Positions 1,154 to 14,399 of a DNA stretch of 20,633 bases are shown here, one piece after another. A program made the position numbers and the translations under genes. Numbering within the stretch: position 1 is the first letter of the stretch; every line of letters starts with the position of its first letter. The notes beneath the pieces are model-generated. The model did no database searches. It was not told where the DNA came from and saw only the letters and a program-made list of their open reading frames with translations. The DNA comes from Anaerolineae bacterium (lineage in GTDB: Bacteria; Chloroflexota; Anaerolineae; VGOG01): the NCBI GenBank assembly GCA_049589355.1, contig JBAWAP010000138.1, positions 1 through 20,633 of the forward strand, given 5' to 3'.

Positions 1154-2128
1154 TTAGGGAGCGGCAGTGGGTGTGATCGTGGGAGTTGCTGTAGCCTCAG
1201 GTGGGGTGGGCGTGGGGGTGACTCCCTCCACGAACCATTCCACGTCCACCACCTTGCCCCTTTCCCCCAGGAGGCCCAAGGGTTCGCCGTTGACGGTGGC
1301 TTCCACACCACCGGCGTTGCCACAGCGCAAGGCGATACTCTCTCGCCCGCGCCAGGTATGCGTTGTGCCTTCCTCCAGGGAGCCCGCGAAAACCTCTTGC
1401 CCATCCACGACAACCCGCAGCCAGGAATACTCGACGATTCTCAGCTCGACCTCCACGCCAGCGGAAACCCTGGGCGTGAGGGTGCCGGTGGGCGCACTGG
1501 TTCTGGTGGGAACGCTGGTGGGGGTGGAGGTGGAGGTAGGCGAGACGACGACTGCGACGGTGGGCATGGCAGTAGATGTGGCAGTGGGCATTTCGATGGG
1601 CATGGCGGTAGGCATCGTAGTGGGCGTCGCTGTCGAGGTGGCCGGGGGCAGTATGATTTCTTCGGAGGTGGTGACAGTAGGCGATGGGGTGGCGGTGGCA
1701 ATGGCTCGCCCTGATGACAACCGGGCCCTAACTATAGGGGGAAGGTAGTGCCAGGCGGCCCAAGACCCAAAGGCTAGGAGCGCCACGATGAGCAGGGCGC
1801 CAATCACTAGGTCGGGCGTCAGCCAGGAGGGCGCGGCCAGGGAGATGTCCATCGGCTCGAAGAAGCCAGGCTTTGCCGAAGCTGCCTTGCCCTTGACGTC
1901 TCGTCCTTCGTAAAGGGCTAGCACCTCTTCGGGGTCGAGCCCCAGATACAAAGCGTAGTTGCGCAGAAACCCTTTGACGTAAGCTTCCGCAGGCAAGGCC
2001 GTGTAGTCTTCCTCCTCCAGGGCCTTAAGAAACTTCTGCCGTATTCGCGTGGCCTCTTCGACCTGCTCCAGGGAGACCCCCTTTTGTTGGCGCGCCTCCT
2101 GTAGCAACTGACCAACATCGCCCATCAC
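1154..2128 (-). CDS. rodZ: RodZ-like cytoskeletal protein: N-terminal XRE-type HTH, one TM helix, Pro/Thr/Ala-rich linker, C-terminal DUF4115-like beta domain
   Basis: N-terminus (M)MGDVGQLLQEARQQKGVSLEQVEEATRIRQKFLKALEEEDYTALPAEAYVKGFLRNYALYLGLD is the RodZ/HTH_25 signature. A hydrophobic segment (LVIGALLIVALLAFGSWAAW) is followed by a long PT-rich low-complexity linker and a C-terminal beta-rich domain. AGGAGG RBS sits 8 nt upstream of the ATG at 2125; a GTG at 2128 is the alternative start. Confidence 0.7.
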   Translation of the reverse strand: MMGDVGQLLQEARQQKGVSLEQVEEATRIRQKFLKALEEEDYTALPAEAYVKGFLRNYALYLGLDPEEVLALYEGRDVKGKAASAKPGFFEPMDISLAAPSWLTPDLVIGALLIVALLAFGSWAAWHYLPPIVRARLSSGRAIATATPSPTVTTSEEIILPPATSTATPTTMPTAMPIEMPTATSTAMPTVAVVVSPTSTSTPTSVPTRTSAPTGTLTPRVSAGVEVELRIVEYSWLRVVVDGQEVFAGSLEEGTTHTWRGRESIALRCGNAGGVEATVNGEPLGLLGERGKVVDVEWFVEGVTPTPTPPEATATPTITPTAAP

Positions 2129-4992: not shown

Positions 4993-6000
4993 TCAGCTTA
5001 TCACAAAGGTACCACACCCAAAGTGGGTTTGCTTTCCGATGTGGAGGATAGATGCCAACTCAAGATAAGGGATGATGGGATGGGGGATAGACGGAAAGGT
5101 TTGTGTGCCTATCCAACGCCCTGGCCAAGTCTTGGGGGCCGGCTTGAGCCTTTTATGATGAACGGGAATGCGGGAGGCCTGTTCCATAACAGCCTGGAAG
5201 GATGCCTGTTCCTCCGCGCTCAAAACATCCCACACATCGTCGGGCTTGTGGTGTTTGCCCGGCAATAGTAGACTCATCCGGGCTATCAAGGACTCCAGTA
5301 TACTCTGTAAGGTTGGCACTTGATGAGCAGGTGTTCTATTTCGATCACGTCGTCGGTCAGTTTGGTCTTCATGGCCGGCCAAATCAAAAGGTGTTAGCCA
5401 GGTCAGACGGTCGAATATACGCTCTGGGCCTAAGTCAAAACTCAATCCTTCAGCCCATTGGACGGGGGTCGCGTGATAGCTCAGATCCAGTCGCCCGTCA
5501 CTCACGACAGGCTCCCAACGAGGTCCCCGCGCCACATAAACTGCATGGATGTCGAATCGGCCCCAGAGGACGTTCTGGCGCTGCCATTGCGGATCAGAAA
5601 CACTCCCTGCCTCCTCCAGGGCCGGCAAGATAACTTCTAGAAAAAGTCCATGATCTGCGCTCTCCCCCATCAGTTTGAGTTCCCATAGAATCAGCTCTTC
5701 CTGTCCATAGGTCTGCTTGCCCGGATAAACAAACAGTACCGCTTCAATCGGCCACGATCCTTCTGGCATCGTAGCAGGCTTTTTCTTCCCTAAAAGTGAG
5801 ATTCCACCGTATTCATCCCAGGGGGCCAGGGCTTTGTGCCAGGGACGGGCTTGATGAGTTGGAAGGCGGTTGGCAATCATGGTCCCCAGAACCAAGGAGA
5901 TCTCTGCGGATAGACATCTCGGCAACCGGACCAGCGAGCTATTGACCCGACACGCAAACAGATAACGGATGAGTTTAATAGGTTTGATAAAAGGCCACAT
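4993..6000 (-). CDS. RAMP-like protein with a C-terminal Cas6-type glycine-rich loop (putative Cas6-like RNA endonuclease), last gene of the RAMP island
   Basis: C-terminus ...LASILHIGKQTHFGCGTFVIS* (nt 5014-5046 encode HIGKQTHFGCG). This fits the Cas6 G-rich loop consensus G-h-G-[KR]-x-[TS]-x-h-G-h-G placed about 6 aa from the C-terminus. The start is uncertain: the ATG at 6000 overlaps the stop of the upstream gene by 26 nt (translational coupling) and is preferred over 6063 and 5880; none has a good SD. The 5' part of the gene has visibly lower GC (about 40% at 6001-6060). Confidence 0.45.
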   Translation of the reverse strand: MWPFIKPIKLIRYLFACRVNSSLVRLPRCLSAEISLVLGTMIANRLPTHQARPWHKALAPWDEYGGISLLGKKKPATMPEGSWPIEAVLFVYPGKQTYGQEELILWELKLMGESADHGLFLEVILPALEEAGSVSDPQWQRQNVLWGRFDIHAVYVARGPRWEPVVSDGRLDLSYHATPVQWAEGLSFDLGPERIFDRLTWLTPFDLAGHEDQTDRRRDRNRTPAHQVPTLQSILESLIARMSLLLPGKHHKPDDVWDVLSAEEQASFQAVMEQASRIPVHHKRLKPAPKTWPGRWIGTQTFPSIPHPIIPYLELASILHIGKQTHFGCGTFVIS

Positions 6001-6859
6001 AATCAACAAGCTCGTATAACAATTTGATTCGATTCTTAGGCCACTGTCGAATTCTCCAGGCATTCAGCATATCTTTGGCCTCCTGACTCAAGAACCCCAT
6101 AAATCTTCCCCAGTAAAACTGTTCCTCGCTGGTGTCCTCCAGATTCAGTAACTCGTAGAGCGACTCTTGTTCTGTGGGGCGCAAGATTGTCCGAAAGACC
6201 GCTGCCATTTCTAGCACGCTCAAGAATTCAGAAACTTCAAAGGTGAGCAATCCCTGTTGGTCCCGGGTATGGGGTTTCAGGATCTGATAGGGCGCAGAAT
6301 AGAATCGAACACGCAGTTGATCCATGGGAAACCGTGCCTCATGATGGATAGCTCTGCAGAGGACATCTCCCATACCTATCTTTTTCCCCCCTCCCGCGGT
6401 GGGAAGTACTTGGACAAGCCCCTTCAGGTCAGATCCGTGGTAGATGACGAGCTCCTGTAGCCAAGGCTTTAGCTCGCGTCTGGGCATCATCAGCAGAAAA
6501 TGGTTCTCGTCATGGACATAAGCGCCCAAGACGTGGTGATCATAAAATCCTTCACCCATTCGAAGCAACTTCGACAAGCGATTGACAAAACCCCAGATGA
6601 CGATGGATTGACGGGAGATTCTGCCCAGCTTGCGGGCTCTGGACAGAATGGCCTGGCATGATTGGCAGTAATTCTGCTCCGGGGAAGATAGACGAGGATA
6701 GAGCCAGCATCGTTGGCAAGGGCCGTCAAGAGCAGAAAAAGGCGGCCCGATCTCATCCCCAGTGGGAAAGAGATCGGGCCTGGTGGCAAGATATTCCAAG
6801 GTGGCTAACAACTCGGCGCCGGTTTGAGTACGGCGCAACCAATCAAAGCCGCTTAGCAT
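5975..6859 (-). CDS. Hypothetical protein (294 aa) with an N-terminal CxxC-x13-CxxC zinc-ribbon; translationally coupled to both the upstream multi-RAMP gene and the downstream Cas6-like gene
   Basis: ATG at 6859 overlaps the stop (6843-6845) of the 1073-aa gene by 17 nt, and its own stop (5975-5977) overlaps the candidate start of the next gene. Motif GPCQRCWLYPRLSSPEQNYCQSCQ. No family recognised by eye. Confidence 0.65.
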   Translation of the reverse strand: MLSGFDWLRRTQTGAELLATLEYLATRPDLFPTGDEIGPPFSALDGPCQRCWLYPRLSSPEQNYCQSCQAILSRARKLGRISRQSIVIWGFVNRLSKLLRMGEGFYDHHVLGAYVHDENHFLLMMPRRELKPWLQELVIYHGSDLKGLVQVLPTAGGGKKIGMGDVLCRAIHHEARFPMDQLRVRFYSAPYQILKPHTRDQQGLLTFEVSEFLSVLEMAAVFRTILRPTEQESLYELLNLEDTSEEQFYWGRFMGFLSQEAKDMLNAWRIRQWPKNRIKLLYELVDYVAFYQTY

Positions 6860-9800
6860 TCAGTGCCCTATGCAATGCTGCGTGATGATAAATGACAGCG
6901 GGCTCGATCCATTCGTCAACCTGGATGGGCACACGCCAGCTCTCTTCGGGCTCGCCAGTGTACCGCTTGGCCCAGTCAATCAGGAAGCTGTCTGGGAGAA
7001 TTTGCAGGCGTAGGCTGCCAAAGCCGAGATAGCGGTTGTTGCCCATCTTGTGAGCGAGTCCCGACTCCAGTGCCACACACCACACCAACCTTTGCAGTTC
7101 TTGTTCCTCGAGGTTCCAGAAGCGGATCGTAAAACGGGCGCGCGCACCAGGGAGTATGGCCCTGAAATAACGAGCCTGGAACGTGTCGGGTTGAAAATCA
7201 TCTAGTCGCTTGACGATGGGAGCCAGTGGGGCGTGGGTAAAGAGCCGCCAGGTCTTGCCGACGAGTAACATGGCAGCAGAACTGCCCGGCATGCTTTGCC
7301 ATTGAACTCCGGTGTACTGCCACTCACCGTAGGGATATGGTACTTTGAACCAGGCCAGTTCGGGTTTCTCGAACAGACCAAAGCTGAAAGACAAGCGCCC
7401 CATGATAGCCTGATCTGGACCCGTTCCCACCCAGCCGAACAGGCTATCTGACGGGTTCAAACGGCTAATGTCGGGGCTTGGCTCACGGGAATCGCTGGCA
7501 ATGGAATAGATGTGGCGTAGCATCCCCTTGATGCTCCGGCTGGAGAGCGCATAGACTTTGTTGGAACCTCGGTGGGCGGCCTCAGGAGGGGCCATGGCGA
7601 AGAAGTCCCAGCCATTGACGGGCCCATCGTCCAGGGTGGTTTTGAACGACGGTTCGCCGCTCTCTTGTATGTGAAGGGGGGTCAGGACCTCTGCCTCCAC
7701 GGCCAGCGTGCCACAATAGCCGCCGAAAGCCCGGTGCGAGATAAAGCCGGCACTGGCCCTGGGTGGTGTTGGGGAGACTTCTTGCTCGGGAGCGAGGGGG
7801 TAGATGGTCTGCAAGGCTTTGGTGGCTGCATCGCCCTCAAGGTCCAGTCTCTGCCAAATGCCATCCTGCGTCAGCGTCTGTTTTCCAAACAACTTCTCTC
7901 CCACACCGTCCGGATCCGCCGTTAGCCACGTGAGCTTGGACACATCCGCCTTAACCCAACCGAAACCGCTGGTCTTTTCACCGCCCAAGGGGATGTCGCC
8001 CCTTTGAAAATCCTGGAGCAAATGGGCCATTAGAGAAATCACTTCCAAGTCTTGCTCTTCAATGTCCTGAACATCCAACTGGAGTTGGAATGCAAGTTGA
8101 TCTCCATAGGCAAAGAGATAGTCGTGCTTGGCGGCCTCTATCGGCTGTCCCGTTTTGGGATCCATCTTGACCCCATCCATAGAGCACCATGCGCGTTCCG
8201 GATCCAGCGGGTCTGTGAGATAGGCGTCGGAGAAAAAGATCAGCCCCCGTTGCCCTTGAGTGCCAAAGAGACGGTTCAGCACCTCGGTGGTCTTGAGGGA
8301 CTCACCCCACAGGGTTCCTAGCACCTGCGAGGCGCGTTTTCTGAAAGCTCCTTTGATCGTGCTGCCGGGGATATAGATCTCCCAAGCTCCTTGCTCTTGC
8401 GAGGATGGCGACCACGCTAACATGCGCATGAACATGGTATCGTAGGGCTTGCCATACTTGCGGGATATCTCTCGATTGGACACGCCGCCAGCCCGAAAAT
8501 CAATGTGGTGGGGCTGGGCCAGTTCCTGGCGAGTACGATCACGATGGGCCTTGAGAAAGGCGATGAAGTTCTCGTCGTTGGTGATGCTTTTATTCAGGTT
8601 CCTGGGATGTAATATATGGCGGAATTGCACTCGACGGTGGGCATCAACGAACTCCCTCCATGTTGCAGGACGGATACCCTCTGGAACCAGGTCCGGGGCG
8701 CCCCACTGGTACTCGTCAATCTCGCCCTGGAGCAACATAGTTTTTATTCGTATGTGTTCCTCGCGGGTTGCGATCTCCGCCTCCACCCAGGCGTCGCTCT
8801 GCAGCAACCGGATTTGTTGATCCACCTGTTGGTAGAGGCGGGGGAGGACCTTCTGGCACGCGGGGGCCAGAATCTGTACCAGGGCCGCTTCGCTTTGAAT
8901 CTGCTCGGCGAGACGGTCGGCCAGCGCGACGTCTAGCCCCAGGCCATTGGCAATCTCTAGCCAAGCTTCGTAATTGAGCTGTTCGCTGGCCCGGCGCTGG
9001 CTCACCATAACCTTGAGGATACGTTTAGCCATGTTGGCCTTTTCCCCCAGGGCCTCCCTGAATGCGGCATCGGCCGCTTCTTTGCTGGAGAAAGGCTGCT
9101 CGACCAAAGGTTGAATTTGGGCAAGTACCGTTTTGGAGAGAGCATATTTCCCCTTGCCTAACTTAGCCACGGCTGCAGCCGGCAAAACCCAAACTTCGAC
9201 TTCCCCGATAGATTGCTCCCTCAGCCAAATGGCGATGATTCTCCGAAGATACTCGGCGAACTTTCGCTTCCAATCTTCCGGGCTGAGGATCGGTCCTGCC
9301 AGCCCCAGCGCCAGTCGCTCACGAATGGGGTCTGGCAGATCGCGCATCGTCTCTACCAGCAAGCGGCCCTCAATAGCAGCAAAGGAAGGCACCTCAGGGT
9401 CCACCTTGCCCCAGTTCCAGCCGACCAGAACGGGGTTCGTGGCATTAAAGGTCAAGCCCATCCTCAAATGATTGGCCCCAGGATGCAGGCGGGAAGGTGT
9501 TTCGGGTGCTGAGAACGGAAGGTCCATTTCAAGGCGAATGCGCCCCAATCCTTTGCTCTTGCCAGCCCCGAACCAGAAGCGTCCTTCTTGCAGTTCTCTT
9601 AGGGCGTAGTACAGGTGGGCGGCGTTTTCGCCTTGCTGCAGGAGCGACTCATTTACAGACAAGGTGAGATCGAAAACGGAGTTGCGAAACAACGTTTCCA
9701 TTTTGTAATTGGCGTTCGCTATCGCAGCCCAGCGGTCATCGTCCAACTTTATGCCCATGCGCAAGTCAAAGAAGCGATCCCGAGGATAACTCTCTTCCTG

Positions 9801-10064
9801 CAATTTGCACTCTACCCTAGTAATGAGCCCTTTCGGCATGGTCGAGTCGTATAATCGCAACCACATCCGGTCAAGCAGGCCAATGTTCTCGCCACGGCGC
9901 GATTGGCCGATGAAGGCATCCATCAAGGACTCAGCCGTACCCGCGATTTCCCCCGCCAGAGAGACCAGGCGATGGGTCCCGTCTCCATCTCTTGTGAACA
10001 GGGTCTTGCGTGCATTCCCTCTATAAATCGGGGATTCCGCATAAAGTTTACCTTTCAGAATCAT
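6843..10064 (-). CDS. Single-polypeptide multi-RAMP effector: three Cas7-type (Csm3/Cmr4-like) RAMP domains plus an inserted roughly 300-aa alpha-helical (Cas11-like?) region. A gRAMP / Cas7-11-like protein, but much smaller (1073 aa)
   Basis: Domain 1 (aa about 1-185): LKGKLYAESPIYRGN (compare with Cas7 beta1 'tPLHIGsG') and the G-rich loop FGAGKSKGLGRIRLE (nt 9543-9569). Domain 2 (aa about 515-705): PHHIDFRAGG, IPGSTIKGAFR (nt 8340-8372, the textbook IPGSS.KGalR loop of Csm3/Cmr4), LFG, and the G-rich loop LGGEKTSGFGWVKA (nt 7959-7988). Domain 3 (aa about 785-1030): LTPLHIQESG (nt 7656-7682), ALSSRSIKGMLR (7515-7544), LFGWVG, YLGFGSLRL (7011-7031). AGGAGG RBS 4 nt upstream of the ATG at 10064. 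Confidence 0.8.
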   Translation of the reverse strand: MILKGKLYAESPIYRGNARKTLFTRDGDGTHRLVSLAGEIAGTAESLMDAFIGQSRRGENIGLLDRMWLRLYDSTMPKGLITRVECKLQEESYPRDRFFDLRMGIKLDDDRWAAIANANYKMETLFRNSVFDLTLSVNESLLQQGENAAHLYYALRELQEGRFWFGAGKSKGLGRIRLEMDLPFSAPETPSRLHPGANHLRMGLTFNATNPVLVGWNWGKVDPEVPSFAAIEGRLLVETMRDLPDPIRERLALGLAGPILSPEDWKRKFAEYLRRIIAIWLREQSIGEVEVWVLPAAAVAKLGKGKYALSKTVLAQIQPLVEQPFSSKEAADAAFREALGEKANMAKRILKVMVSQRRASEQLNYEAWLEIANGLGLDVALADRLAEQIQSEAALVQILAPACQKVLPRLYQQVDQQIRLLQSDAWVEAEIATREEHIRIKTMLLQGEIDEYQWGAPDLVPEGIRPATWREFVDAHRRVQFRHILHPRNLNKSITNDENFIAFLKAHRDRTRQELAQPHHIDFRAGGVSNREISRKYGKPYDTMFMRMLAWSPSSQEQGAWEIYIPGSTIKGAFRKRASQVLGTLWGESLKTTEVLNRLFGTQGQRGLIFFSDAYLTDPLDPERAWCSMDGVKMDPKTGQPIEAAKHDYLFAYGDQLAFQLQLDVQDIEEQDLEVISLMAHLLQDFQRGDIPLGGEKTSGFGWVKADVSKLTWLTADPDGVGEKLFGKQTLTQDGIWQRLDLEGDAATKALQTIYPLAPEQEVSPTPPRASAGFISHRAFGGYCGTLAVEAEVLTPLHIQESGEPSFKTTLDDGPVNGWDFFAMAPPEAAHRGSNKVYALSSRSIKGMLRHIYSIASDSREPSPDISRLNPSDSLFGWVGTGPDQAIMGRLSFSFGLFEKPELAWFKVPYPYGEWQYTGVQWQSMPGSSAAMLLVGKTWRLFTHAPLAPIVKRLDDFQPDTFQARYFRAILPGARARFTIRFWNLEEQELQRLVWCVALESGLAHKMGNNRYLGFGSLRLQILPDSFLIDWAKRYTGEPEESWRVPIQVDEWIEPAVIYHHAALHRALNAKRL

Positions 10065-10174
10065 GGCACCCTCCTTTGTTTTGGTCAGGTCGTCTTTGGC
10101 CGGGTGGTCGAGTGGTCAGGTGGTCTGAAAACCGAGGGGCCACTTGACCAGGGACCATCCGACTATCTGACCAT

Positions 10175-10203
10175 ATTGTACATCAAAGTTGGACACCGGT
10201 CAA
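10175..10203 (-). promoter_or_regulatory. Near-consensus sigma70-type promoter for the multi-RAMP operon: TTGACC-17-TACAAT on the minus strand
   Basis: Minus-strand read ...tttgaccggtgtccaactttgatgtacaatatgg... The -35 is at 10198-10203, the -10 at 10175-10180, and the spacer is exactly 17 nt. The predicted TSS is near 10168, leaving a roughly 100-nt leader before the ATG at 10064. Confidence 0.5.
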
Positions 10204-10249: not shown

Positions 10250-11311
10250 CTATGGAGATTCGGCTGGCTTTTGCACTCTGCCCCATTGTCCCTCTCCACC
10301 CTTTATGTCAAATCTTATGCCCAGGAACTGCTCTACCACCCAAACATTGGTCAACAAGTGCATGGTGATTTCGCAAGTGGTAAAAGCTGACGGGCCAGGG
10401 GCCAGAGCCATAGGGAGAATCAACTGATCGGCGAGGTGCTTGTCTAAGCAGGCACCGCTCTGGTGATACTCTATGAATTCGCGGCAAGCTTCCTCAGCCA
10501 CCTTCTCGGCAGGCTTGCCGCGCTCTCCCAGAGACGAGAAGCCGGCCACCGCGTGCTCATACTCGGCTGCAAGAAAGACGACGGTACCCTGGCCTGGTGA
10601 GGGAGCATCAACGATCTCGATCTGAGGGTCGAAGCCGCGCTTCCGCAGGCATTCCTCCGCTCGCTTCTTTTGCCTCTGACCAACGTGAGCAGGTAGGTTC
10701 GAGGTAGCGGAGATTCCCCAGAGGCGCTTCAATTCACCCCGTTCGACCAAATCCAGGCCAGATAGATAGCTTTCCTTTCGGCCCCTGATCAAGGCAGTCA
10801 TCTCCCCCCCACCTATCGGGTACCAACCCCACCTCTCGATCTCGGCTCTCGTTTCGACTCCCATGTATGCCAGGGTAGGCAGGTAGACGTGCCTGAGGTA
10901 GTGAAAGGGGGGGCTCCAGGCTACGTGGGTGCCACCACGCATCGTCAGGCGGGATTGGCCGGGAGCGAAAGCCAAGGGCAGCAGCAGGGTCTGGAAGACC
11001 AAGCTGGTTGCGCCAGCGCTGCCGCCTTTGCGGGCCTCGGCTACATCGAAAGAGTATTCCCCAGCCCGAGGTGACGACAGAGGCCTGAAAGTCAGGGTTA
11101 GCGAGCCCAACTCTGCACCCTCTAGCTCAGCATCGCAGATTTGAGCTATCGCCCGAGCCCCTGTGAGGTGTTGGGCCTGTAGACCAGGTTTGCGACGCTT
11201 GGCACGGATGTTCTCAATGCGCAAAGGTTCCCCCAAGAGAGCAGAAAGGGTCAAGGAGGTACGCAAGACCTGGCCACCTCCCTCGCCATAAGAGCCGTTG
11301 ATAACTATCAT
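10250..11311 (-). CDS. rtcA: RNA 3'-terminal phosphate cyclase
   Basis: N-terminal INGSYGEGGGQVLRTSLTLS matches the RtcA signature DG..GEGGGQILR. HLADQLILPMALA aligns with the E. coli RtcA active-site region (YLADQLVLPMALA, catalytic His). 353 aa. No rtcB or rtcR in the window. Confidence 0.9.
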   Translation of the reverse strand: MIVINGSYGEGGGQVLRTSLTLSALLGEPLRIENIRAKRRKPGLQAQHLTGARAIAQICDAELEGAELGSLTLTFRPLSSPRAGEYSFDVAEARKGGSAGATSLVFQTLLLPLAFAPGQSRLTMRGGTHVAWSPPFHYLRHVYLPTLAYMGVETRAEIERWGWYPIGGGEMTALIRGRKESYLSGLDLVERGELKRLWGISATSNLPAHVGQRQKKRAEECLRKRGFDPQIEIVDAPSPGQGTVVFLAAEYEHAVAGFSSLGERGKPAEKVAEEACREFIEYHQSGACLDKHLADQLILPMALAPGPSAFTTCEITMHLLTNVWVVEQFLGIRFDIKGGEGQWGRVQKPAESP

Positions 11312-13883: not shown

Positions 13884-14399
13884 TCACCATCCTTTTATGA
13901 ACTCTCGCCACTCTTTGTTTTCTTTCAAGTATCGGCCGAAGAGATAGCTGCTCGTGGCACGGGGTTCATAGGGATGCTGCAGCAACTGCATGTGTGCCTC
14001 CTGGAGAGCCCGGCCGCCCTTTCGACGGTTACAGGCTGGACAGGCGCTCACCAAATTTTCCCACTCATGCTGCCCTCCATGATGGCGTGGGACGACGTGA
14101 TCCACGGTCAAGTTCCTTGATTCTCGGCCACAATATTGGCAGGTGTAGTTGTCCCGCCGGAAGATCTCCTTCTTAGTGAGCTTCACCCGAGGGTAAGGTC
14201 GCCTGATCATATAGCCTAGCTTTATCACCGAGGGGCACAAAAAGGTAGTGGAGGGAGTACGGATGACCCCTCGGCTATTCTCCAAAACTTCGGCCTTACC
14301 CACCACGACCAAGATGATAGCCCGCTTGACGTTGCAGACGTTCAGCGGTTCGTAGTTTAAGTTGAGGACAAGAACTGGGGAATCTAACAGGCTGTTCAA
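13884..14399 (-). CDS. HNH endonuclease (McrA-like)
   Basis: CQYCG...DHVVPRHHGG...NLVSACPACNRRKG is the HNH motif with the Zn-binding Cys pairs. TTG start at 14399 with a GAGGAG RBS 6 nt upstream. Confidence 0.8.
   Translation of the reverse strand: MNSLLDSPVLVLNLNYEPLNVCNVKRAIILVVVGKAEVLENSRGVIRTPSTTFLCPSVIKLGYMIRRPYPRVKLTKKEIFRRDNYTCQYCGRESRNLTVDHVVPRHHGGQHEWENLVSACPACNRRKGGRALQEAHMQLLQHPYEPRATSSYLFGRYLKENKEWREFIKGW

What the first reader, a model, noticed from the sequence alone, without database searches (positions are those of the whole stretch)
5975..6859. Unknown 294-aa protein with zinc ribbon, tightly coupled between effector and Cas6-like gene: candidate novel accessory or effector partner
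Both ends overlap the neighbouring genes, so its stoichiometric co-expression with the RAMP effector is strongly implied. It carries a CxxC-x13-CxxC treble-clef-like motif near the N-terminus and no motif I can place in a known family. In III-E, Cas7-11 partners with the protease Csx29; this protein could be the analogous, uncharacterised signalling or effector partner.
Basis: inference. Interest (0 to 1): 0.6.

Follow-up and report, generated by a model that had tools for sequence, protein, structure and literature searches.

The report
Cas10i, degenerate Cas10 of type III-I
The 294-aa zinc-ribbon protein is real and strongly conserved, but it is the already named Cas10i, a shrunken and probably catalytically dead remnant of the Cas10 large subunit that belongs to the recently described type III-I CRISPR-Cas system, so it is an ordinary member of a known, rare and so far untested family.

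Summary
ORF 5975..6859(-) encodes 294 aa with a CxxC-x13-CxxC motif (C48/C51/C65/C68). It overlaps the upstream RAMP-fusion gene by 17 nt and the downstream Cas6 gene by 26 nt.

It is not an unknown protein. It matches NCBIfam NF049958.1 "type III-I Cas10i" end to end (492.5 bits, cut-off 175). It is 61% identical to the Desulfonema magnum protein that NCBI names Cas10i. Its neighbours are Cas7-11i (1933 bits) and Cas6i (318 bits).

The protein corresponds to the C-terminal half of Cas10: zinc finger, one palm domain and the helical D4 domain. It has no HD domain, no first palm domain and no GGDD motif.

In 80 species-level genomes, Cas7-11i lies directly upstream in 67 of 68 loci and Cas6i directly downstream in 71 of 72. 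dN/dS is 0.09-0.15.

The most likely role is a non-enzymatic structural large subunit of the Cas7-11i-crRNA complex. It is not a Csx29-like protease partner. It is already known and of low interest. One aside: none of the 87 loci has a CRISPR array within the flanks available (up to 10 kb).

The parts
10175..10203 (-). Promoter-like site TTGACC-17 nt-TACAAT, about 110 nt upstream of the cas7-11i start codon. It is the probable operon promoter.
   Evidence: Consensus scan, 10 of 12 matches. Similar hexamers align in the close relatives L008 and L007. A consensus match only, not proof of function.
6843..10064 (-). cas7-11i: the 1073-aa fused gRAMP effector of type III-I, described as three Cas7 domains plus a Cas11 domain.
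   Evidence: NCBIfam NF049957.1 at 1933 bits (cut-off 800), full length. Pfam RAMPs domain at residues 563-705. PADLOC Cas7_IIId, Csm3 and gRAMP matches. A strong Shine-Dalgarno sequence (AAAGGAGGG) precedes it.
5975..6859 (-). cas10i: the 294-aa degenerate Cas10 large-subunit remnant. This is the finding.
6656..6718 (-). Zinc-ribbon motif CxxC-x13-CxxC, residues 48-68 of Cas10i. It is the likely counterpart of the Cas10 zinc finger that precedes the C-terminal palm domain.
   Evidence: All four Cys are invariant in 26 of 26 homologues, and the loop between the pairs varies from 12 to 34 residues. Model confidence is low here (pLDDT 47-61), so the equivalence to the Cas10 zinc finger is inferred from domain order.
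6290..6622 (-). Palm (cyclase/GGDEF-like) domain, residues about 80-190, with beta-alpha-beta-beta-alpha-beta topology. The hairpin turn where GGDD would sit reads HDEN (residues 116-119).
5984..6235 (-). C-terminal helical bundle, residues about 209-292, equivalent to Cas10 domain D4 (Cas11-like). It carries the invariant FYWGR motif (residues 248-252).
4993..6000 (-). cas6i: the type III-I pre-crRNA endoribonuclease, 335 aa from the conserved ATG at 6000. The longest ORF would start at 6063.
   Evidence: NCBIfam NF049959.1 at 317.8 bits (cut-off 160), with the profile starting at residue 23 of the long ORF. Pfam CRISPR_Cas6 at the C-terminus. PADLOC Cas6. The ATGTGGCCTTTTATCAA start with a 26-nt overlap is conserved in the five Chloroflexota loci L002, L004, L006, L007 and L008.

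Best explanation
The ORF is cas10i, the signature large-subunit remnant of a type III-I CRISPR-Cas effector module. It is transcribed as the middle gene of a cas7-11i / cas10i / cas6i operon, and the overlaps suggest translational coupling.

The protein keeps only the C-terminal half of Cas10: a four-Cys zinc ribbon, one palm domain and the helical D4 domain. It has lost the HD nuclease domain, the first palm domain and the GGDD catalytic hairpin. It therefore most likely makes no cyclic oligoadenylate and cleaves no DNA.

Its most likely role (inferred) is a non-enzymatic structural subunit. It would dock one-to-one on Cas7-11i at the crRNA 5'-tag end, where Cas10 sits in other type III complexes. 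There it would stabilise the Cas6i-processed crRNA or help sense tag/anti-tag pairing. Target RNA cleavage would be done by the Cas7 domains of Cas7-11i.

Shown here: family membership, Cas10 fold, gene linkage, purifying selection, and absence of a GGDD sequence motif. Inferred: complex formation, position in the complex, and lack of any enzymatic activity.
For: Family:
- NF049958.1 Cas10_III-i at 492.5 bits against a cut-off of 175, end to end.
- 61% identity to the D. magnum protein that NCBI names 'type III-I CRISPR-associated protein Cas10i'.

Fold:
- AF2 model with pLDDT 84 and pTM 0.82.

Catalytic motifs:
- The beta2-beta3 hairpin turn reads HDEN and varies between homologues.
- The length of 294 aa leaves no room for an HD domain plus a first palm domain.

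Linkage:
- Cas7-11i is directly upstream on the same strand in 67 of 68 genome loci, and Cas6i is directly downstream in 71 of 72. The same holds in six further distinct loci, eight locus records in all.
- The 17-nt and 26-nt overlaps are conserved in the Chloroflexota loci.
- No other conserved neighbour is seen; the flanks differ in every lineage.

Selection: dN/dS 0.09-0.15.

Complex: the published AF3 model of Cas7-11i plus Cas10i plus crRNA has an interface score of 0.75.
Against: - No experiment on any type III-I system was found in the searchable literature. Complex formation, stoichiometry and inactivity are therefore predictions.
- The protein is far more conserved than a passive scaffold might need. 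Sixty-two columns are invariant, including FYWGR, R199-D200 and Y140-H141-G142, and identity is 61% across phyla. This leaves room for an unrecognised activity or a specific RNA contact.
- The mapping of the GGDD position rests on the topology of a predicted model, not on a residue-level structural alignment.
- The zinc ribbon is modelled with low confidence (pLDDT 47-61).
Confidence: 0.85

Rival explanations
1. Cas10i is a Cas10 derivative that is still active in some way. Its palm domain or zinc ribbon could carry a non-canonical catalytic or signalling function switched on by target RNA binding, for example an unusual nucleotide product, or allosteric activation of an effector encoded elsewhere. 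The system would then still signal like other type III systems.
For: - Very strong conservation of many polar and aromatic residues: R199-D200, Y140-H141-G142, E174, FYWGR, and D165 (D or E in all 26 sequences).
- dN/dS about 0.1.
- A Gly-rich loop (T-x-G-x-G, residues 154-158) follows beta4.
Against: - There is no GGDD or any invariant acidic pair at the palm hairpin.
- The first palm domain, which forms the other half of the Cas10 active site, is absent.
- No CARF, SAVED or other sensor-effector gene is conserved next to the three genes in any lineage inspected.
- Makarova et al. class the cyclase function as lost in III-I.
Confidence: 0.1
2. One reading: the protein is a new accessory effector analogous to Csx29 (TPR-CHAT) of type III-E. 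It would be a target-activated enzyme tethered to the gRAMP.
For: - Tight genetic coupling to a gRAMP-like effector.
- No Pfam or PADLOC match.
Against: - The family is already defined as Cas10i.
- CHAT and peptidase genes were seen near only one locus (L006) among the seven distinct loci with called genes, the window included.
Confidence: 0.02
3. The protein is a zinc-ribbon nucleic-acid-binding regulator of the operon, such as a transcription factor or an autoregulator, and is not a subunit of the effector complex.
For: - The invariant four-Cys zinc ribbon lies near the N-terminus.
- A structured 5' UTR precedes cas7-11i.
Against: - The whole-protein fold match to Cas10 covers 250 of 294 residues.
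- There is no HTH or other DNA-binding domain.
- The upstream regions of the operon are not conserved across lineages, so no common operator exists.
- The published complex model places the protein on Cas7-11i.
Confidence: 0.03

Closest known systems
Cas10i (NCBIfam NF049958.1; type specimen Desulfonema magnum WP_207677911.1; Makarova et al., Nat Microbiol 2025, PMC12669027)
   Same: - Full-length HMM match at 492.5 bits, and 61% identity to the D. magnum protein NCBI names Cas10i (P0114).
- Same length (294 vs 295 aa) and same four-Cys motif.
- Same gene order, cas7-11i / cas10i / cas6i.
   Different: - Nothing of substance differs.
- In this Chloroflexota-type locus the three genes overlap (17 and 26 nt). 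In D. magnum they are separated by repeat-containing spacers of about 490 and 220 nt.
Canonical Cas10 (Csm1/Cmr2; closest structure type III-D Cas10, PDB 8s9t chain C)
   Same: - Encoded next to the Cas7-family backbone of a type III effector.
   Different: - About half the size (294 aa vs 555-1024 aa).
- No HD domain, no N-terminal palm domain and no GGDD motif.
- No sequence similarity detectable by HMMER against PDB chains or against 1.8 billion cluster representatives.
- No cOA-responsive accessory genes lie nearby.
Type VII Cas14 C-terminal Cas10-remnant domain, and the inactivated Cas10 of III-G / III-H
   Same: All are products of reductive evolution of Cas10 in which the cyclase function is lost and the remnant serves to bind the Cas7 backbone.
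   Different: - Cas14 fuses the remnant to a beta-CASP nuclease.
- III-G and III-H Cas10 keep an HD nuclease and both palm domains.
- Cas10i is a free-standing remnant with no nuclease attached.
Csx29 (TPR-CHAT) partner of Cas7-11e in type III-E
   Same: It is encoded beside a single-protein multi-Cas7 effector and is predicted to bind it.
   Different: - The fold is unrelated.
- Csx29 is a caspase-like protease activated by target RNA.
- Cas10i has no protease domain and is homologous to the ancestral large subunit, which III-E has lost altogether.

Membership tests
Cas10i (type III-I large-subunit remnant, NF049958.1) | Scores above the curated cut-off of the family HMM over its full length | tested here: met
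   492.5 bits against a cut-off of 175; protein residues 1-292 match profile positions 1-295 of 295.
Cas10i (type III-I large-subunit remnant, NF049958.1) | Encoded next to Cas7-11i (three Cas7 domains plus Cas11 in one protein), usually followed by Cas6i | tested here: met
   The neighbours score 1933 bits (Cas7-11i) and 317.8 bits (Cas6i). The same order is seen in 67 of 68 and 71 of 72 genome loci.
Cas10i (type III-I large-subunit remnant, NF049958.1) | Structural, but not sequence, similarity to Cas10, with the N-terminal polymerase/cyclase domain missing | tested here: met
   [not shown]
Cas10i (type III-I large-subunit remnant, NF049958.1) | Disrupted GGDD catalytic motif | tested here: met
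   The protein contains no GGDD sequence. The palm beta2-beta3 hairpin turn reads HDEN and is variable. The position was assigned from the model topology, not from a residue-level superposition.
Cas10i (type III-I large-subunit remnant, NF049958.1) | Physical association with Cas7-11i and crRNA | not testable with these tools
   Only the published AF3 model is available (interface score 0.75).
Functional (signalling / DNase) Cas10 | N-terminal HD nuclease domain | tested here: not met
   The N-terminus is two short helices followed by the zinc ribbon. There is no HD-domain match in Pfam or NCBIfam.
Functional (signalling / DNase) Cas10 | Two palm domains with a GGDD active site for cOA synthesis | tested here: not met
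   The model has a single palm domain, and no GGDD is present.
Functional (signalling / DNase) Cas10 | Four-Cys zinc finger and C-terminal helical D4 domain | tested here: met
   C48/C51/C65/C68 are invariant. The C-terminal helical bundle matches Csm2/Cas11-like folds.
Csx29 / TPR-CHAT (III-E accessory protease) | CHAT caspase-like protease domain and TPR repeats | tested here: not met
   [not shown]

The most novel reading that the evidence does not exclude
Type III-I could be a minimal effector that is normally encoded without any CRISPR array. Cas10i would then have been kept, under very strong constraint, for a new job that canonical Cas10 does not do. It might cap and select the 5' tag of crRNAs borrowed from arrays elsewhere in the genome, or even of non-CRISPR guide RNAs. 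It might also gate Cas7-11i cleavage by sensing tag/anti-tag pairing through its zinc ribbon. The absence of any array within the available flanks (up to 10 kb) in 87 loci, although each system carries its own Cas6, would be the genomic signature of this.
Probability: 0.12. Interest if true: 0.55.

Novelty: already known. Interest (0 to 1): 0.17.

Why it matters
This changes little. The gene is a textbook instance of a family that was named and modelled in the 2025 CRISPR-Cas classification, and NCBI's annotation pipeline already has an HMM for it.

Its remaining value is practical. Type III-I has no published biochemistry in the searchable literature. A compact three-gene RNA-targeting module (a 1073-aa effector, a 294-aa Cas10 remnant and Cas6) is a plausible engineering substrate, like Cas7-11e. 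This locus and its roughly 560 relatives give a well-conserved panel for choosing constructs.

The analysis here adds three things:
- a corrected Cas6i start at 6000;
- quantified gene linkage (67 of 68 and 71 of 72 loci);
- the observation that the loci carry no CRISPR array nearby.

Tried and rejected
- Pfam and PADLOC scans of the ORF gave nothing.
- A profile search of PDB sequences gave only one chance hit, a viral fusion glycoprotein at E 0.012.
- A profile search of 1.84 billion cluster representatives found 88 clusters. Nearly all are about 290-300 aa or fragments. The one long hit (P0204, 838 aa, seven stretches matching only profile positions 242-285) was not examined. No canonical Cas10 was recognisable among them, so sequence alone cannot link the family to Cas10.
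- I looked for a CRISPR array in the window and in 87 related loci with a repeat finder and with my own exact 12-mer periodicity scan. None was found. The only periodic hits were 56-nt coding tandem repeats and a short duplication in the D. magnum locus.
- I looked for a conserved non-coding RNA or guide upstream of cas7-11i. The upstream regions align only among close relatives, at the promoter and Shine-Dalgarno sequence. Rfam found nothing in the window.
- I considered rtcA (RNA 3'-phosphate cyclase, 10250..11311) as a system component and rejected it. It is adjacent only in the window's own clade: L008 and 10 close genome loci of at least 78% identity. It is absent in all other lineages.
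- I considered a Csx29-like protease role and rejected it on fold.
- Literature searches for experimental work on III-I, Cas7-11i or Cas10i found only the classification paper. The other 'Cas10i' text hits are unrelated genome-announcement strings.
- The supplements of that paper held as text contain no III-I entries.

Full report
**Observation.** The window contains a minus-strand ORF at 5975..6859 that starts with ATG and encodes 294 aa. I confirmed the first and last of these Cys codons by eye in the raw sequence: Cys48 is 6716-6718 and Cys68 is 6656-6658.

The ORF overlaps the stop of the upstream 1073-aa gene (6843..10064) by 17 nt. It also overlaps the downstream Cas6 gene. The longest Cas6 ORF starts at 6063, an 89-nt overlap. 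However, the family profile begins at residue 23 of that ORF. The ATG at 6000 (MWPFIK...) is conserved in sequence and position in the five Chloroflexota loci I inspected, and it gives a 26-nt overlap. I therefore place the Cas6 start at 6000.

**Identity.** Pfam and PADLOC find nothing in the ORF. NCBIfam gives a full-length match to NF049958.1, "type III-I CRISPR-associated protein Cas10i", at 492.5 bits against a curated cut-off of 175.

- The upstream gene is Cas7-11i (NF049957.1, 1933 bits).
- The downstream gene is Cas6i (NF049959.1, 317.8 bits).
- A search of 5.8 billion proteins returns 561 homologues, all about 290-300 aa. One is the Desulfonema magnum protein that NCBI names Cas10i, at 61% identity (P0114).
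- Named hits at 83-86% identity come from Anaerolineales MAGs, so the window is probably from an Anaerolineae-class Chloroflexota genome.

**What the literature says.** Makarova et al. (Nat Microbiol 2025, PMC12669027) defined subtype III-I by two features:

- Cas7-11i, three fused Cas7 domains plus a Cas11 domain, derived from a III-D variant independently of III-E Cas7-11e.

They state that the cyclase function is lost in III-I and that the GGDD site is disrupted. They predict RNA cleavage from aspartates conserved in the Cas7 domains. Their AlphaFold3 model of the Cas7-11i-Cas10i-crRNA complex has an interface score of 0.75. I found no experimental paper on III-I in the library.

**Independent test of the fold.** I aligned 26 homologues of 61-89% identity (A1) and predicted the structure. 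Mean pLDDT is 84 and pTM is 0.82, with low confidence only at residues 33-43 and around the zinc ribbon.

- Ranks 2-10 are all Cas10/Cmr2/Csm1 from III-A, III-B and III-D.

This reproduces the published result with this window's own protein.

Combined with the secondary structure, the domain layout is:

- residues 1-26, two helices;
- residues 48-68, zinc ribbon;
- residues about 80-190, a beta-alpha-beta-beta-alpha-beta palm domain;
- residues about 209-292, a helical bundle equivalent to Cas10 D4.

This is the C-terminal half of Cas10. The protein has no HD domain and no room for a first palm domain.

In palm cyclases the GGDD/GGDEF motif sits in the beta2-beta3 hairpin turn. Here that turn (residues 116-119) reads HDEN and varies among homologues. 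Placing the motif at this turn is an inference from topology. The absence of any GGDD sequence is direct.

By sequence the family stands alone. A profile search of 1.84 billion cluster representatives finds only 88 clusters. Nearly all are about 290-300 aa or fragments, one long outlier (P0204, 838 aa) was not examined, and no canonical Cas10 was recognisable. A profile search of PDB sequences finds nothing meaningful.

**Conservation and linkage.**

- The four Cys are invariant, and the loop between the two CxxC pairs ranges from 12 to 34 residues.
- Sixty-two columns are invariant, including FYWGR (248-252) and R199-D200.
- dN/dS against orthologues is 0.09-0.15 where synonymous sites are not saturated, so the gene is under strong purifying selection.
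- In 80 species-representative genomes, Cas7-11i lies directly upstream on the same strand in 67 of 68 loci with enough contig. Cas6i lies directly downstream in 71 of 72. Fifty-six loci share one tblastn offset that fits the 17-nt overlap.
- The exceptions are a Desulfobacterales MAG with cas10i and cas6i but no cas7-11i (L049), and a contig lacking cas6i (L040).
- Six further distinct loci (eight locus records, L001-L008) with called genes show the same three genes and otherwise unrelated flanks.

Neither is met.

**Operon.**

- A promoter-like TTGACC-17-TACAAT lies at 10203..10175 on the minus strand.
- A strong Shine-Dalgarno sequence precedes cas7-11i.
- No promoter-like site on the coding strand lies within the three genes. 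One terminator-like hairpin on the coding strand (5621..5605) lies inside cas6i, but such matches are no more frequent here than in shuffled sequence.

The overlapping start and stop codons fit co-translation of the three products.

**Mechanism.** The shown and inferred steps are as follows.

- Shown: the protein is a Cas10 homologue that lacks the sequence features needed for cOA synthesis and HD nuclease activity. It is genetically bound to Cas7-11i and Cas6i. No CARF, SAVED or other effector gene is conserved nearby.
- Inferred: Cas6i cuts pre-crRNA, and Cas7-11i binds the crRNA and cleaves complementary RNA with its Cas7 aspartates. Cas10i docks at the 5'-tag end, where the Cas10-Cas5 pair sits in canonical type III complexes. 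There it acts as a non-catalytic cap that stabilises the crRNA or takes part in tag/anti-tag discrimination.

I put the identification at about 0.97 and this mechanistic reading at about 0.55-0.6. The main rival (about 0.1) is an unrecognised activity or signalling role, suggested by the unusually strong conservation. The Csx29-like protease idea is contradicted by the fold.

**Comparison and novelty.** The gene is a regular member of Cas10i. Every defining feature I could test is met (see the membership table). It fails the tests for a functional Cas10 (HD domain, two palm domains, GGDD) and for Csx29 (CHAT, TPR). It is already known.

**Things seen in passing.**

- No locus has a CRISPR array within the flanks available, up to 10 kb each side. 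This covers the window, six further distinct loci (eight locus records) and 80 genome loci, at least 14 of them with full flanks on both sides. The system nevertheless encodes its own Cas6. The passages of the classification paper that my term searches returned do not comment on this for III-I.
- rtcA directly upstream of cas7-11i is shared only with the window's close relatives, so it reflects clade synteny and not a system component.

Noticed in passing
window 1-20633; loci L001-L088: There is no CRISPR array within the flanks available (up to 10 kb each side) of the cas7-11i/cas10i/cas6i genes in the window, in six further distinct loci (eight locus records L001-L008) or in 80 species-level genome loci. 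At least 14 of these have full 10-kb flanks on both sides. The system still encodes its own Cas6. No Cas1 or Cas2 appears in the window ORFs scanned or in the Pfam listings of those six distinct loci. The crRNAs must come from arrays elsewhere. The paper passages returned by my term searches do not discuss this for III-I.
   Followed up: partly
window 10250-11311 (-): rtcA (RNA 3'-terminal phosphate cyclase, 414 bits) sits 185 nt upstream of cas7-11i on the same strand. The adjacency recurs only in the closest relatives (L008 and 10 genome loci of at least 78% Cas10i identity) and in no other lineage. It looks like clade synteny and not a functional link.
   Followed up: yes
window 10065-10203 (-): A promoter-like TTGACC-17-TACAAT is followed by a roughly 110-nt 5' UTR. 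The UTR is built of short GGTC...GACC repeats that fold into one long imperfect hairpin (-48 kcal/mol, z = -2.2) reaching the Shine-Dalgarno sequence. L008 has a longer version of the same repeat pattern. It could be a regulatory leader.
   Followed up: partly
window 4993-6063 (-): The longest Cas6i ORF starts at 6063 (356 aa). The conserved start is the ATG at 6000 (335 aa, MWPFIK...), which gives a 26-nt overlap with cas10i that is conserved in the five Chloroflexota loci L002, L004, L006, L007 and L008.
   Followed up: yes
window 13884-14399 (-): A stand-alone 171-aa HNH endonuclease whose HNH segment matches the IscB and Cas9d HNH region (69.7 bits to the IscB model, far below its cut-off). 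It is syntenic in L008. It has no obvious link to the III-I genes.
   Followed up: no
L049 5967-9071; L040 4896-9202: Two rare incomplete loci were seen. A Desulfobacterales MAG has cas10i and cas6i but no cas7-11i; an unrelated 301-aa ORF sits upstream instead. A Desulfococcaceae contig has cas7-11i and cas10i but no cas6i downstream.
   Followed up: partly
L006 1-2099: One Anaerolineae locus has CHAT / peptidase C25 and peptidase C11 genes 4-10 kb upstream of its III-I genes. This recalls the III-E Csx29 theme, but it was seen in only this one among the seven distinct loci with called genes, the window included.
   Followed up: no
L001 9511-10000 and 10869-11048 (D. magnum): In the type-specimen genome the three genes do not overlap. 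A roughly 490-nt spacer with a 25-nt direct repeat separates cas7-11i from cas10i. A G-rich 7-nt tandem repeat (GGGGCGA-like) fills the cas10i-cas6i gap.
   Followed up: no
loci L041, L057, L067, L069, L081: Cas10i homologues of 54-60% identity occur in MAGs labelled Pseudomonadota, Gemmatimonas, Cytophagia and Rhodocyclaceae, in addition to Chloroflexota and Desulfobacterota. Together with the differing flanks, this suggests horizontal spread of the three-gene module.
   Followed up: no
window 1558-1653: Degenerate 12/24-nt periodic repeats lie inside the RodZ-like gene (1154..2128, minus strand). They probably encode a low-complexity linker.
   Followed up: no
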